Positions 3,317-61,942 of a stretch of 64,000 nt of DNA are shown piece by piece. This stretch comes from the human T2T-CHM13v2.0 reference genome, Homo sapiens. A model generated the notes under the pieces. The model was not told where the DNA came from. It worked only from the letters and a program-made list of their open reading frames with translations, and searched no databases. Both the position numbers and the translations under genes were made by a program. The stretch is taken from assembly GCF_009914755.1 (NCBI RefSeq), contig NC_060939.1. The stretch is one strand, 5' to 3'. Every line of letters begins with the position of its first letter. Position 1 is the first letter of the stretch.

Positions 3317-6028
3317 AAGCAAGAGAAAATACTGTTTCGATCAACCAGTTACCAAAGCATGTTTCTACCATTTTGTGTTCTTTTCTGCAGTGACCTTGTA
3401 GTTACTCTTTTCCATAGTATCATTCCCTTGTTCTCATCTCCTTTCAATCTTACTTACATATCCCTAATTTGACCATCTTGAGATAATATTTTTCCCATCA
3501 GGAACTGGCTTTTATTGCCTGCTGAATCAAATATAAAGAATTCTGGATGGCTTCCAAAGTCTTCCATAATGTGACTCCATCTCCTACATAATATAATTTA
3601 GTTATTCTTGTTAGTCAACATTTTTTTTTCCTTTTAGTTAAATTCAGCTGACAGGGAGAAACATTTATTAAAGTGGTGACTATGTGAGGACTATTGAGAT
3701 AGGTGCCAGGGATCCAAAGACATGTCAACATTTTCCCTCTATCCGATTGATTATTTCCCAATAACTTCTGTAATATTCCTTATTATTACTATTTTTTCCG
3801 AGATGGAGTTTCACTCTTGTTGCCCAGGCTGGAGTGCAGTGGTGCGATCTTGGCTCACTGCAACCTCTGCCCCCTGGGTTCAAGAGATTCTCCTGCCTCA
3901 GCCTCCTGAGTAGGTGGAATTACAGGCGTCCACCACCATGCCCAGCTAATTTGGTATTTTTAGTAGAGACGGGGTTTCTCCATATTGGTCAGGCTGGTCT
4001 TGAACTTCTGACCTCAGGTGATCTGCCTGCCTCAGCCTCCCAAAGTGCTGGGATTACAGGTGTCAGCCACCATGCCCAGCCAGATGTCCTCCTTTCTTAC
4101 CCTGTTCTTAGCTAAATTCTGTCCTCAAGGCCAGGTTCTCTCTCTCATCACATCATCATGAGCACTGCGTGTGTATGAGGATTTTAAAGCCTTATAGTAA
4201 TTGTCTGTTGATCCCATTACTGTATTTAAGGAATGATATAGATCACAAGCATTGTAGGATTCACATGAAGAAACAAATTCCAAGAACTGGGACCATAAAG
4301 GATGGAAGAGATGGAACTTAAGTTTGTTTCTTCTTGTAGCTGAGACCTCAGATGTGCACCACTACGCCCAGCTAATTTTTAAATTTTTTGTAAAATTTTT
4401 TGTCTTTACTTTGTTGCCCACTTTGTTGGCTACCTACCATTTCTCCCTATCTCTGCCCTTTAGGCAACAACAATACTCAACATAAATATCTGTTCTTGAA
4501 CTCCTGGGCTCAAGCAGTCCTCCCACCTCAGTCTCCCAGAGTGTTGGGATTACAGCTGTGAGGCACCACGCCCAGTCAGTGCACTGCTTTTTGCATGGAG
4601 AAAGTCTTGCTGCTACTTTAAAAAGGTCAGTGTGCTTAATTGATCTACATTCTGTCACAAACTTCTTATTTTATCACAAACTGATAACAAACAGTTCCCC
4701 AATCAGCACTGGTCATTGGACCATACTTGGAGTTACATTGCTGTAGTGTGAGACTTTCATACTTTTTTTAAAATTGTCACCTGTATTAAGAAATACATTT
4801 TACATTTTCATCCAGTGTTATATCATATACACATGTACATAACTGAAACAATTTTACGAAGCAGTACCTAACCTTACTATGTGTGACATAGTCTGATGTT
4901 TGCTATTTTTTTAATGCTGATCATGACCTTCTAATGGATTTTAAAAACACTGCCCTCAAGCATTTAGCACAGTGCTAGAGACATAGTAGTTGCTCAGAAA
5001 ATACCATACATTTTAGCAGTGATTAAATCTTGAGAGGGTTGAGCCTTCTTAATACTTGAGGATTACTTTAAAATGTTATTTCATTGGCCGGGCACGATGG
5101 CTCACGCCTGTAATCCCACCACTTTGGGAGGCCGAGGCGGGCGGATCACCTGAGGTCAGGAGTTCGAGACCAGCCTGGCCAACATGGAGAAACCCTGTCT
5201 CTACTAAAATACAAAAATTAGTGGGGCATGGTGGCGGGGCGCCTGTAATCTCAGTTACTTGGGAGGCTGAGGCTGCTTGAATCTGGGAAGTGGAGGTTGC
5301 AGTGAGCCAAGTTCATGCCACTGCACTCCAGCTTGGGCGACAGAGTGAGACTCCGTCTCCAAAAAAAAAAAAAGTTATTTAATCAATACTTAGTTGTTTG
5401 TGGCACCTTATACAGAACGAGTGTAGAGTGGATTATGAGATTTAAGACAGCGAGAAGATACTTATGTTGAGTATTGTTGCTGCCTAAGGGCAGAAATAGA
5501 GAGAGATGGTGGGTGACCAACAAAGACAACTTTTGCTTTCCTTTCAATATTGCCAAAGACCTTAGGAGTGGCTGGTGTGAATCCCTGCTTAAAATCAGGA
5601 CCAGTTTGAATGACTGCAAACCTCATTTTTCACTTTTTACCTTTTAGTCTTCACTTTGTGGTTCCAGTCATCAAATCCCTACTCTTTGTCTTAGAAAGGA
5701 GCAGAAGGATGTCAGAGAAAGAACATTTTCTCTTTATTTATTTATTTTTTTTTGAGATGGAGTCTCTGTTGCCCAGGCTGCAGTGCAGTGGCGCGATCTC
5801 AGCTCACTGCAAGCTCCACCTCCCAGGTTCGTGCCATTCTCCTGCCTCAGCCTCCTGAGTAGCTGGGACTACAGGTGCCCGCCACCGTGCCCGGCTAATT
5901 TTTTGTCTTTTTAGTAGAGACGGGGTTTCACCGTGTTAGCCAGGATGGTCTTGATCTCCTGACCTCGTGATCCGCCCGCCTTGGCCTCCCAAAGTGTTGG
6001 GATTACAGGCGTGAGCCACCGTGCACGG

Positions 6029-59350: not shown

Positions 59351-61942
59351 ACGTTTTATTAAAGTTCTTCTAAGAACGAAAAATAAAATTTCTTAAGATG
59401 TGTAAGCCTTACAAAAATTAAGAACTTAAGCCTTAGTCAAACAGCAGTGCTCCAAAAGTGAAACCCAAAGGAGCTGAAAATGAGTTAACAATAAGAGAAA
59501 ATGAAGAGAGAGAGAGAGAGAGAGACACACACACATGCCTTCTCTTCTTCTGACATCCTTCTGTTCCTTTTAAAGAGAAAGAGTAGGGATTAGATGACTG
59601 GAACCACAAAGTGAAGACTAAAAAATAGAAAGTGAAAATTGAGGTTTGCAGTTACTCCCACTGGTCCTGACATTCTAAGCAGGGCTTCACACCAGCTACA
59701 GCCAAGGTCTTTGGCAACATTGAAAGGAAAACTAAAGTGTCTTTGTTGGCCACCCACCATCTTGCCCCATCTCTGCCCTTCAGGAAGCAAGGGTACTCAA
59801 TATATCTTCTGGCTGTCTTAAATCTCATACTGTATGATCCACTCTACACTCATTCTGTGTAAAATGCCACAGACAACTAAGTATTGATGAAATAGCATTT
59901 TAAAGTAATTCTCACGCATTAAGAAGGCTCAATAAAACTTACTGTATTTGCTGAGCAACTACTATGTCTCTAGCACTGTGCTAAATGCTTGAGGGCAGTG
60001 TTTTTAAAATCCCTAAGGTCATAATCAGTATAAGTATAAGCCTAGGTGTGGTGGCACAAGCCTGCAGACCCAGCTACTTGTGAGAGTGAGGCAAGAGAAT
60101 CATTTGTGCCAAGGGTTCAAGAACAGCCTCGGCAATGTAGTGAAACCCCATCTCTAAACTTTTTTTAAATGACATTTGCAAACATTTTCTCCCAATATGT
60201 GGCTTATCTTTTCGTTTTCTTGATGGAGTTTCTTGAAGCACAGAAGTTTTTGTGGAAGTCCATTCTGTCATATTTTTCACATGTGGATTGTGCTGTTGGT
60301 ATTGTATCTAAGGAACATTTTTTCTGACCCAAAGTCCTAAAGTAATGAAGATGTTTTCTTCTTAAGGTTTCAGTTTTGGTGCTTAGATCTATGATCCATT
60401 TCAAGTTAATTTTTATATACAGTGTGGTAAGGATCTAAATCCATCTTTTTGCATGTGGATATTTAGTTGTGCCATTTGCCTTCATTTTGACAGAATTTTT
60501 TTCCAGCACACATATTCTATTTATTACATGTTTGTATTCAACAGAATTTGTCACCAGGCAGGAGTACAGTGGCATGATCATAGCTCACCTGACCACCTGG
60601 GCTCAAGCCTTGACCACTTGCCTCAAGCGATCCTCCCACCTCGGCTTCCTGAGTAGCTAGGACCACAGGTGCATGCCATCACATCAAGGTTGGCTTTTTT
60701 TTTTTTTTTTTTTTTTTTTTTTTGGAGATGGAGTCTCGCTCTGCCACCCAGGCGGGAGTGCAGTGACACAAACTCAGCTCACTGCAACCTCCGCCTCCCA
60801 GGTTCAAGCAATTCTCCTGCCACAGTCTCCCAAGTAGCTGGAATTATAGGTGCATACCACCATGGCTGGCTAATTTTTGGATTTTTTTTTTTTTAGTAGA
60901 GATGGGGTTTCACCATGTTGCCCAGGCTGGTCTCGAACTCCTGACCTCAGGTGATCCACCTGCCTCGGCCTCCCAAAGCGCTGGGATTACAGGCGTGAGC
61001 CACTGTGCCCGGCCAAACCTGGCTAATTTTAAAAATTTTTTTATAGAGACGGGGTCTGTGTTGCCCAGGCCGATCTCAAAACTCCTGGGCTCAAGAGATC
61101 CTCCTGTCTTGGCCTCGCAAAGTGCTGGATTACAGGCATGAGCCACCCTGCCTGGCCTAGAATGTATGTATCTTAAGACATGAAGAATATAAAAATAGAA
61201 ATGGGTGGTTCATCAGGCGTTTTTGTTTTCTATTAATTTTTTAAAGGAAGTGGAAGTATCACATTCAATTATATTGAGGTTGATGCCTCAATATATTGGC
61301 TTGTTTTTACTTATATAACATTTCATCAGTATTTTGTGGGATGAATGAATATAGAAGAAGAAATGTTAGGAGAGCAAGATGACTTTAGGTAGATTTAGAA
61401 TAAGCCAAGATAATGAAGTTTTGTAGCCTTTCTTGTGAATATTCATTTGCTAGGATACTATAACGTCTATTCTCTACTTACACCTCTTAGCATATAGAGA
61501 AAAGGCACACTTAGTCCTAAAGAATACATTAGGTTTATATTTTACGTAATCGTTTGCTGTGGAAAACTAAAAAAAAAATTTTGACTAAAATACCTTGAGA
61601 TGCAAAATTAAAAAAAAAAATGTGGCCTTTCTTATTTGCTTGGATCCACTGTCTTCCTCCCCGTGAACTACCACAGAAGGCCATCTACCTCCACCTTGCC
61701 ACCTGCTATCATTACAGGCTTAGACATACTCCTCTACACCTTGGTATAGTAATATTTGTACTTTGAGAAAAAGATAATTTTTTTCATCTCTGAATCTGTT
61801 TTTTAAAATATGAAGGGCAGCCAAGGCAAGGTTTTTTGATTCTTTGGTACAAGTAGCTTAAGTTTTTATATGACAAAATTTAATTGAAAAATCAGATTTA
61901 AAAAAAATTTTTTTTTAATTTTTTTTATTTTATTTTAATTAG

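What the first reader, a model, noticed from the sequence alone, without database searches (positions are those of the whole stretch)
4915..60030. Ancient intragenic inverted duplication: intron 1 mirrored in intron 12
Seen: over 1 kb of mostly non-repeat DNA plus a MER2 at 4915-7667 recurs, collinear and reverse-complemented, at 57875-60030. Approximate block pairs: 4915-5085 with 60030-59890; 5375-5735 with 59890-59535; 6030-6170 with 59503-59360; 7050-7262 with 58858-58650; 7270-7667 with 58290-57875. The ORF track shows it independently ([20 protein letters not shown] at 5610+ vs [20 protein letters not shown] at 59590-59790 minus). Each arm has its own later insertions (AluS, AluY and a tandem duplication in A; AluJ, L1PB+Alu and a GA/CA microsatellite in B) while the MER2 is shared. 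Inference: the event followed MER2 insertion and preceded the end of AluJ/L1PB activity, i.e. early primate evolution. Arm B interrupts an antisense L1M, so it is probably the derived copy. At about 85-90% identity and broken up by repeats, it would likely be missed by standard segmental-duplication tracks. I know of no description of it but cannot search.
Basis: partly seen in the sequence, partly recalled or inferred. Interest (0 to 1): 0.8.

Follow-up and report, generated by a model that had tools for sequence, protein, structure and literature searches.

The report
Ancient inverted intron duplication in USP8
About one kilobase of otherwise unique DNA from intron 1 of the human USP8 gene was copied, back to front, into intron 12 early in primate evolution, probably during repair of a chromosome break; it is a real but most likely harmless genomic fossil.

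Summary
Five collinear, reverse-complement blocks join 4914-7668 to 60031-57876. In the whole T2T genome the four non-repeat blocks occur only at these two USP8 sites.

Arm B is the derived copy. It sits inside an old L1M-like element, where arm B plus an adjacent Alu-monomer-like piece stand in place of about 0.65 kb of it. Each arm carries its own later Alu or L1 insertions, with empty sites in the other arm. Unique DNA differs by 12.8% (K2P 0.14). A B-only old-type Alu puts the event in the AluJ-like era.

One point is new. The two MER2s are no more alike than unrelated MER2 copies, and homology stops exactly at their outer ends. I therefore favour two independent MER2 insertions, with one serving as a homology anchor. 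A broken end in MER2-B primed on MER2-A and copied about 1 kb of its flank. The far end was then joined without homology.

No RNA family or protein domain was found in the unique blocks. It is an undescribed but ordinary kind of event. Interest is modest.

The parts
4914..7668 (+). Arm A, the donor, in USP8 intron 1. It is about 1.0 kb of ancestral unique DNA plus MER2-A, now stretched to 2.75 kb by three Alu insertions and a tandem duplication.
4914..5084 (+). Unique block 1, paired with 60031-59887. The far junction of the copy is at 4914-4917.
   Evidence: 133 of 145 aligned columns identical; two genomic places only
5085..5369 (+). A-only Alu of the young type, with a poly-A tail and the target-site duplication GTTATTT(C/A)AT. 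The site is empty in B.
   Evidence: 0 old-like and 11 young-like of 13 diagnostic sites
5369..5725 (+). Unique block 2, paired with 59901-59540.
   Evidence: 306 of 352 identical; only the two USP8 places plus the 71-base patch
5726..6029 (-). A-only Alu of the young type, with the target-site duplication CATTTTCTCTT. The site is empty in B.
6029..7046 (+). Unique block 3 (6029-6236; 6029-6169 is paired with 59506-59358) followed by an A-only Alu. The block-plus-Alu unit is tandemly duplicated as 6029-6527 and 6527-7046.
   Evidence: the two units: 458 of 486 identical, K2P 0.06
7046..7354 (+). Unique block 4 plus the flank that abuts MER2-A. It is paired with 58863-58649 and 58289-58205.
7355..7663 (+). 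MER2-A, a high-copy TA-flanked DNA-transposon fossil. It starts CAGTCAGCC and has TA at 7664-7665. It is the proposed template-side homology anchor.
57881..58204 (-). MER2-B, with TA at 57879-57880. It is inserted in the L1M-like element and is no closer to MER2-A than unrelated copies are. It is the proposed invading-end anchor.
58205..60031 (-). The copied part of arm B, in USP8 intron 12. The unique blocks are 58205-58289, 58649-58863, 59358-59506, 59540-59901 and 59887-60031. They are interrupted by the B-only insertions listed separately.
58290..58648 (+). B-only insertion: an old-type Alu (58357-58638) plus a ~60-base Alu fragment. It is absent from A.
   Evidence: 9 of 13 old-like sites; 19 of 238 = 8.0% from the old-group consensus
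58864..59354 (.). B-only L1-like fragment that carries an Alu (58992-59279) with the target-site duplication TTAATAAGTT / TTAGTAAGTT. About 66 bases present in A (6170-6236) have no counterpart here.
   Evidence: 3254 genome candidates for 58864-58990
59505..59540 (.). B-only GT/CT (AG) microsatellite, at the position of the empty site for the A Alu 5726-6029.
60036..60156 (+). Alu-monomer-like fragment lying between the arm B junction and the point where the L1M resumes. Whether it came before or after the event is not resolved.
   Evidence: self-match depth 12-15, against about 69 for full Alus
57606..57878 (-). Left flank of arm B: an L1M-like old repeat that runs up to the TA at which MER2-B sits.
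60160..60500 (-). Right flank of arm B: the same L1M-like element, resuming about 0.65 kb further along.
4421..4491 (-). A 71-base inverted patch copied from 5456-5525 of arm A. It lies inside a partial Alu (4336-4578). It is a separate small templated insertion.

Best explanation
This is a neutral fossil of a repair or replication accident in an early primate germ line.

The starting state (inferred) had two independent MER2 elements in opposite orientation, 50 kb apart. MER2-A lay in unique intron 1 DNA. MER2-B lay at a TA inside an antisense L1M-like element in intron 12.

The proposed steps (all inferred):
1. A break or collapsed fork arose in the L1M just inside MER2-B.
2. The broken 3' end was trimmed back to the MER2 and paired with MER2-A.
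4. The new strand was released and joined without homology to the other broken end. About 0.65 kb of L1M was lost.

This is one-ended invasion (SDSA- or BIR/MMBIR-type copying) finished by end joining.

What is shown:
- there are two copies only
- they are inverted and collinear
- arm B lies inside the L1M, where about 0.65 kb of L1M is missing
- homology stops at the MER2 ends
- the two MER2s are no closer than unrelated copies
- each arm gained its own insertions later

No function is indicated. At most, the pair adds one more reverse-complementary match between the introns that flank exons 2-12.
For: 1. Two copies only. The unique blocks hit just the two USP8 places in the 3.1-Gb assembly.

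2. B is derived. Its flanks 57728-57875 and 60160-60500 are both old repeats, with 19 and 688 candidates. In 1 of 18 loci and 7 of 29 loci that carry such a repeat, both flanks are found. They are always in the same order and orientation. In four of those loci (L054, L057, L063, L070) they lie about 650-680 bases apart, with 280-1150 in the others. In B, the L1M alignment runs up to the TA beside MER2-B.

3. The MER2s look independent.
- With the same aligner, A-B divergence is 21.9%, against 22.0 +/- 2.6% for 120 random pairs. B ranks 22nd of 30 in closeness to A.
- Against a consensus of 29 genomic copies, A is 12.8% away and B 13.9% away. 7 of 284 sites are shared derived, against 2.2 +/- 0.9% for random pairs.
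- With 14 inferred CpGs removed, A-B is 47 of 262 (17.9%) and shared derived sites are 4 of 262, against 1.3 +/- 0.6%.
- If one MER2 had been duplicated at the age given by the unique DNA (121 of 945 = 12.8%), I expect about 14 shared derived sites. The Poisson probability of 4 or fewer is about 0.002 (my arithmetic).
- No indel is shared.
- Divergence shows no inner-to-outer gradient within the MER2: 22/97, 14/97, 24/98.

4. Arm homology ends at the outer MER2 terminus. Only a TA run follows it. It runs right up to the inner terminus.

5. The far junction (4914-4917 / 60028-60031) shows no homology beyond it, no poly-A tail and no target-site duplication.

6. The mechanism is established. One-ended SDSA and template-switch MMBIR are described in PMC4888836 (passages read). 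That paper's reference list includes Nassif et al. 1994 on copying of non-homologous sequence from ectopic sites by gap repair.
Against: 1. The step in divergence cannot be placed at the MER2 edge from mismatches alone. The best change point is at A 6148 (10.7% to its left, 18.1% to its right), and the 2-lnL support interval runs from 4994 to 7387.

2. After CpG removal, the MER2 (17.9%) exceeds the unique DNA (12.8%) only at about z = 2.1. It does not differ significantly from the adjacent block 4 plus flank (47 of 304 = 15.5%) (my arithmetic).

3. The 29 MER2 copies used were the best matches to MER2-A among 40 scored out of about 2334 candidates. The consensus therefore leans towards A.

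4. Without an outgroup genome, neither the state before the event (an L1M carrying a lone MER2-B) nor the date can be seen directly.

5. The role of the Alu-monomer-like piece at the far junction is unexplained.
Confidence: 0.6

Rival explanations
1. This is the reader's model: a simple inverted duplicative insertion. A single MER2 was inserted in intron 1. Later a ~1.35-kb segment of unique DNA plus that MER2 was copied as one piece into the L1M in intron 12 by a non-homologous mechanism.
For: The MER2 sits at the same position and in the same orientation relative to the unique flank in both arms. After CpG removal, the MER2 divergence (17.9%) is not significantly above that of the adjacent unique blocks (15.5%). 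The change-point analysis does not single out the MER2 edge.
Against: The duplication breakpoint would have to fall by chance within a few bases of the MER2 terminus. Shared derived sites are at background level, 4 of 262 where about 14 are expected. A-B divergence is typical of unrelated MER2 pairs. No indels are shared. If the copy was made right after MER2 insertion, the unique DNA should be about 20% diverged rather than 12.8%.
Confidence: 0.25
2. Transposase involvement. Either the MER2-family transposase cut at the inner end of MER2-B and that break started the copying (a variant of the best explanation). Or a composite of unique DNA plus MER2 was moved as a unit, using the outer MER2 end and a cryptic end near 4917.
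For: The junction lies exactly at a transposon terminus. TA is present at both ends of arm B (57879-57880 and 60029-60030). MER2-to-MER2 divergence equals that of family members, as expected if the copy was made while the family was active. Gap repair that copies ectopic non-homologous DNA after excision is known for P elements (Nassif 1994, seen only as a reference entry).
Against: No terminal-inverted-repeat-like sequence exists at the far end: the arm ends ...AATCAG, not with the complement of CAGTC. About 0.65 kb of L1M is missing, which transposition does not cause. For the composite version, the unique DNA is only about half as diverged as the MER2 family. Whether any such transposase was still active at that date was not tested here.
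Confidence: 0.08
3. An unannotated low-copy interspersed repeat, or an RNA-mediated retrocopy of intronic sequence.
For: The segment is short, inverted and inserted in another repeat. These are features shared with mobile-element copies.
Against: There are only two places genome-wide, in searches that detect 72-78% identity. There are no terminal repeats, no poly-A tail and no target-site duplication at arm B's ends. About 0.65 kb of L1M is missing at the arm B site. No Pfam domain was found in 7 of 7 ORFs tested. The only Rfam matches in 4300-7800 lie over Alus or Alu fragments, 16 of 16 rows, all below gathering score; none lies in the paired unique blocks.
Confidence: 0.03

Closest known systems
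Repeat-anchored templated insertion or duplication by one-ended invasion (SDSA/BIR) completed by end joining, and template-switch MMBIR/FoSTeS (PMC4888836, passages read; Alu/Alu-mediated rearrangements, PMC6071635 and PMC4356517, abstracts seen in the listing)
   Same: One junction lies in a pair of dispersed homologous repeats. The other junction has no homology. The donor is left intact and there is a loss at the recipient site. The copy is short, nearby (50 kb) and inverted, as the orientation of the two repeats dictates.
   Different: The anchor is an old DNA-transposon fossil (MER2), not an Alu. The event is about 50 Myr old and fixed, not a clinical or experimental rearrangement. The intermediate steps are inferred, not observed.
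Human segmental duplications as catalogued (at least 1 kb and at least 90% identity; definition recalled, not from a call), with repeats enriched at their boundaries (abstract of bioRxiv 10.1101/2025.07.09.663898 in the listing)
   Same: It is a duplicated non-repeat genomic segment with a dispersed repeat at its boundary.
   Different: Substitution identity is 87% and only about 1 kb is unique. It falls below the catalogue thresholds, and it is intragenic and intronic.
P-element-induced gap repair that copies non-homologous sequence from ectopic sites (Nassif et al. 1994; seen only as a reference entry)
   Same: Copying starts from a transposon end that pairs with an ectopic copy of the same transposon and runs on into the donor's flank.
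   Different: There is no evidence here that a transposase made the break. The organism and the transposon family are different.

Membership tests
Interspersed repeat / transposable-element family (for the unique blocks) | Many dispersed copies in the genome | tested here: not met
   Searches found only the two USP8 places, plus the internal tandem copy and the 71-base patch. The same tool found 2334-3254 candidates for true repeats.
Interspersed repeat / transposable-element family (for the unique blocks) | Defined termini with a target-site duplication, terminal repeats or a poly-A tail | tested here: not met
   Searches show no poly-A tail, no matching duplication and no inverted terminal repeat at 4914-4917 / 60028-60031. 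About 0.65 kb of L1M is missing at the arm B site.
Catalogued segmental duplication (at least 1 kb, at least 90% identity; thresholds recalled) | At least 90% sequence identity | tested here: not met
   824 of 945 unique columns are identical (87.2%). The MER2 part is 78-80%.
Catalogued segmental duplication (at least 1 kb, at least 90% identity; thresholds recalled) | At least 1 kb of non-repeat sequence | tested here: inconclusive
   There are about 945 aligned unique columns, or about 1.0 kb of ancestral unique length by my arithmetic.
   Searches give 2334-2342 candidates. One search shows other copies starting TA|CAGT(C/T).... Searches show TA at the outer ends of both copies.
Repeat-anchored templated insertion (one-ended SDSA/BIR or MMBIR plus end joining) | One junction lies inside or at a pair of pre-existing homologous repeats that are independent insertions | tested here: met
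   Searches show the MER2s are as diverged as random pairs, with shared derived sites at background level. Searches show homology ending at the MER2 terminus. The statistical support is moderate (see the Against line).
Repeat-anchored templated insertion (one-ended SDSA/BIR or MMBIR plus end joining) | The second junction is non-homologous, the recipient site is altered, and the donor is intact | tested here: met
   Searches show no homology beyond the junction. Searches show about 0.65 kb of L1M missing at the recipient. Arm A's right flank is single-copy. Its left flank has no copy at the arm B site and only an old low-copy repeat at about 4770-4905.
Repeat-anchored templated insertion (one-ended SDSA/BIR or MMBIR plus end joining) | An ancestral recipient site that carries the anchor repeat but not the copied DNA | not testable with these tools
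   No other mammalian genome is held.
Processed retrocopy | A poly-A tail and a target-site duplication at the insertion | tested here: not met
   The T run at 57693-57725 lies 150 bases outside the arm, within the L1M-like flank.

The most novel reading that the evidence does not exclude
The break that started the copying was made by a MER2/Tigger-family transposase cutting only the inner end of MER2-B. If so, the USP8 pair would be a preserved mammalian example of transposase-initiated gap repair that captures host DNA from an ectopic copy of the same element. It would be the mammalian counterpart of P-element gap repair and of host-sequence capture by plant DNA transposons. It would also suggest a genome-wide class of old duplications, below the identity cut-off of the duplication catalogues, that end exactly at DNA-transposon termini.
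Probability: 0.1. Interest if true: 0.55.

Novelty: new member of a known kind. Interest (0 to 1): 0.3.

Why it matters
This is a clean, datable example of about 1 kb of unique DNA being copied between two introns of one gene, using an old transposon fossil as the homology anchor. Events of this size and age fall below the thresholds of the segmental-duplication catalogues, so they go largely uncounted.

It shows that the coincidence of a duplication end with a repeat terminus, combined with a test for shared derived sites in that repeat, can separate 'repeat copied along' from 'repeat used as anchor'. That test could be applied genome-wide.

For USP8 itself, nothing suggests an effect. The arms are intronic and carry no RNA family or protein domain. 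The roughly 60 Alus in the window offer far more intron-to-intron complementarity than this pair does.

Tried and rejected
- Shared Alu at the same position in both arms, which would have dated the event after an Alu insertion. Rejected: the B Alu 58992-59279 has its own target-site duplication inside a B-only L1-like piece, and the A Alu has a different insertion site.
- Extension of homology beyond the arms. None was found apart from Alus.
- A sharp change point in divergence at the MER2 edge. It could not be resolved.
- A gradient of divergence within the MER2, looked for as a sign of partial conversion. None was seen.
- CpG decay as the sole cause of the higher MER2 divergence. It reduces the excess (21.9% to 17.9%) but does not explain the lack of shared derived sites.
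- A functional RNA or protein in the unique DNA. The Rfam matches in 4300-7800 all lie over Alus or Alu fragments (16 of 16 rows, all below gathering score). None of 7 ORFs had a Pfam match.
- Literature. One search for USP8 + 'inverted duplication' + intron returned 1 paper, on gene fusions in paediatric cancer, judged from its title and the start of its abstract.
- No repeat library (Dfam/RepeatMasker) and no other vertebrate genome were available. Family names and presence or absence across species therefore remain untested.

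
Full report
**1. Observation**

The window is T2T-CHM13 chr15:48,236,001-48,300,000, inside USP8. All are reverse-complement and collinear:
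- 4914-5084 with 60031-59887
- 5369-5722 with 59901-59543
- 6029-6169 with 59506-59358
- 7046-7261 with 58863-58649
- 7270-7668 with 58289-57876

E-values run from 1e-39 to 2.5e-108. Arm A is in intron 1 and arm B in intron 12, by the exon table supplied with the finding.

**2. Is it a repeat family?**

No. The whole 3.1-Gb assembly could be searched.
- Blocks 1-4, and the unique part of arm B, matched only the two USP8 places. The only extras were the tandem copy inside arm A and a 71-base patch at 4421-4491.
- The tool's sensitivity is adequate. It reported 72-78% matches in the same searches, and it found thousands of candidates for true repeats: 2334-2342 for 7355-7668 and 3254 for the B-only L1-like piece 58864-58990.
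- Positions 7270-7363, just inside the MER2, matched only arm B.

**3. Anatomy**

Arm A, left to right:
- unique block 1
- an A-only Alu at 5085-5369, with a target-site duplication
- unique block 2
- an A-only Alu at 5726-6029, with the target-site duplication CATTTTCTCTT
- unique block 3 followed by an Alu; this unit is tandemly duplicated as 6029-6527 and 6527-7046 (458 of 486 columns identical)
- unique block 4 and flank, up to 7354
- MER2-A at 7355-7663, followed by TA

Arm B read in reverse shows the same order, with empty sites where the A-only Alus sit. It has its own additions:
- a GT/CT microsatellite at about 59505-59540
- an L1-like fragment at 58864-59354, carrying an Alu with its own target-site duplication
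- an Alu composite at 58290-58648 that is absent from A

The Alu in B at 58992-59279 and the Alu in A at 6237-6527 look positionally similar, but they are independent insertions. Removing the A-only insertions leaves about 1.0 kb of ancestral unique DNA plus the MER2 (my arithmetic).

**4. Which arm is the copy?**

Arm B.
- Its left flank (57728-57875) and right flank (60160-60500) are both old interspersed repeats, with 19 and 688 candidates at 63-85% identity.
- In 1 of 18 loci fetched with the left flank, and in 7 of 29 fetched with the right flank, both flanks are present. They are always in the same order and relative orientation.
- In four of these loci (L054, L057, L063, L070) the two pieces lie about 650-680 bases apart. 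The other four give about 280, 520, 1010 and 1150.
- So the unique DNA of arm B lies inside one L1M-like element. Together with an adjacent Alu-monomer-like piece (60036-60156), it stands in place of about 0.65 kb of that element.
- The L1M alignment runs up to the TA at which MER2-B sits.
- Arm A's right flank is single-copy. Its left flank has only an old low-copy repeat at about 4770-4905.

**5. The MER2s**

Several results argue otherwise.
- *Boundary.* Arm homology ends at the outer MER2 terminus in both arms. Only a short TA run follows it. It runs right up to the inner terminus.
- *Pairwise divergence.* With one aligner, MER2-A and MER2-B differ at 21.9% of 311 columns. 120 random pairs among 29 other genomic copies give 22.0 +/- 2.6%. 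B ranks 22nd of 30 in closeness to A, and A ranks 15th of 30 in closeness to B.
- *Shared derived sites.* Against the majority consensus of those 29 copies, A is 12.8% away and B 13.9% away. Only 7 of 284 sites are shared derived, against 2.2 +/- 0.9% in random pairs.
- *CpG control.* CpG decay could inflate the divergence, so I removed 14 inferred ancestral CpGs. A-B is then 47 of 262 (17.9%), random pairs are 21.2 +/- 3.2%, and shared derived sites are 4 of 262 (1.5%) against 1.3 +/- 0.6%.
- *Indels.* No indel is shared. A has private 15- and 17-base deletions, and B has private 8- and 5-base deletions.

The unique DNA differs at 121 of 945 columns (12.8%, K2P about 0.14), and its five blocks are mutually homogeneous (chi-square by my arithmetic, p about 0.3). 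Suppose a single MER2, 11% from its consensus, had been duplicated when the unique DNA was. About 14 shared derived sites would then be expected, where 4 are seen (Poisson p about 0.002, my arithmetic).

**6. Limits of that inference**

- The rise in divergence towards the MER2 end is significant: 3 of 500 permutations reach the observed statistic. Its position is poorly fixed, however. The best change point is A 6148, and the support interval runs from 4994 to 7387.
- After CpG removal, the MER2 exceeds the unique DNA only at about z = 2.1. It is not significantly above the adjacent block 4 plus flank (15.5%).
- Within the MER2 there is no inner-to-outer gradient: 22/97, 14/97, 24/98.
- The 29 reference copies were the best matches to MER2-A among 40 scored out of about 2334 candidates.

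**7. Mechanism (inferred)**

Two independent MER2s lay in opposite orientation 50 kb apart. A break or collapsed fork arose in the L1M just inside MER2-B. That left a 3' end which, once trimmed to the MER2, could pair with MER2-A.

The strand polarity fits. The plus strand at MER2-B equals the minus strand at MER2-A. Extension therefore runs leftwards from 7354 to about 4917, producing exactly the inverted arm that is seen. The new strand was then joined without homology to the other broken end, with loss of about 0.65 kb of L1M.

One-ended SDSA and template-switch MMBIR/FoSTeS are described in PMC4888836 (passages read). Alu-anchored analogues are the subject of PMC6071635 and PMC4356517 (abstracts seen in the listing).

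A transposase-made break at the MER2-B terminus is a bolder variant. A composite transposition is unlikely, because there is no second terminus and the L1M loss would be unexplained.

**8. Age**

- Divergence per arm is about 6.4% raw (K2P about 0.07).
- The B-only Alu at 58357-58638 carries 9 of 13 variants typical of the window's oldest Alus, and is 8.0% (19 of 238) from their consensus.
- The A-only Alus at 5085-5369 and 5745-6029 carry 0 of the 13 old-type variants (11 and 13 young-type). The two tandem-unit Alus carry 3 and 2 (8 and 10 young-type).
- The tandem duplication in A is younger, at K2P 0.06 between the units.

The event therefore falls when AluJ-like elements were still inserting. 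From recalled textbook dates that is roughly 45-65 Myr ago, well after the MER2 insertions.

**9. Function**

None is indicated.
- All 16 Rfam matches in 4300-7800 lie over Alus or Alu fragments and are below gathering score; none lies in the paired unique blocks.
- 7 of 7 ORFs from the unique blocks and the MER2 have no Pfam match.
- The pair adds one more reverse-complementary match between the introns that flank exons 2-12. The window already holds 63 near-full Alus in both orientations.

**10. Novelty**

One literature search (USP8, 'inverted duplication', intron) returned a single paper, on gene fusions in paediatric cancer, judged from its title and the start of its abstract. With 87% identity and about 1 kb of unique DNA, the pair falls below the usual segmental-duplication thresholds (recalled). 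It may still be visible in self-alignment tracks, which I could not check.

It is an undescribed instance of a known kind of event. The useful extra is the evidence that a DNA-transposon fossil served as the homology anchor.

Noticed in passing
window 4421-4491 (inside a partial Alu at 4336-4578): A 71-base inverted copy of 5456-5525 from arm A (87% identity) replaces the middle of an Alu. It has short similarity at both joins (TGTTGG-like and CTG). In a three-way comparison it groups with arm A: A=patch 11, B=patch 3, A=B 4, of 67 columns. It is therefore a second small templated insertion drawn from the same donor region, after or around the time of the main event.
   Followed up: partly
window 6029-7046: Arm A has a tandem duplication of a ~500-base unit (unique block 3 plus an Alu). 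The join lies exactly at the Alu head. The two units are 94% identical (K2P 0.06), so this is much younger than the inverted duplication.
   Followed up: partly
window 60036-60156: A diverged Alu-monomer-like fragment sits 8-11 bases from the arm B far junction, directly before the L1M resumes. It has no clear tail or target-site duplication. It could be older than the event, younger, or filler captured during it.
   Followed up: no
window 4770-4905: The last ~135 bases before arm A's left boundary match three other genomic loci at 72-76%. This is an old low-copy repeat that ends about 10 bases from the duplication boundary.
   Followed up: no
window 57693-57725: A pure run of 33 T lies inside the L1M-like left flank of arm B, about 150 bases outside the arm. 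It is unrelated to the arm's end.
   Followed up: no
window 7355-7400 and locus L011: MER2-A lacks about 15 bases between two near-identical short motifs near its 5' end (CTCTGTATC and TTCTGCATC in the full copies). Another genomic copy, L011, shows the same loss. This suggests recurrent slippage deletion rather than shared ancestry.
   Followed up: no
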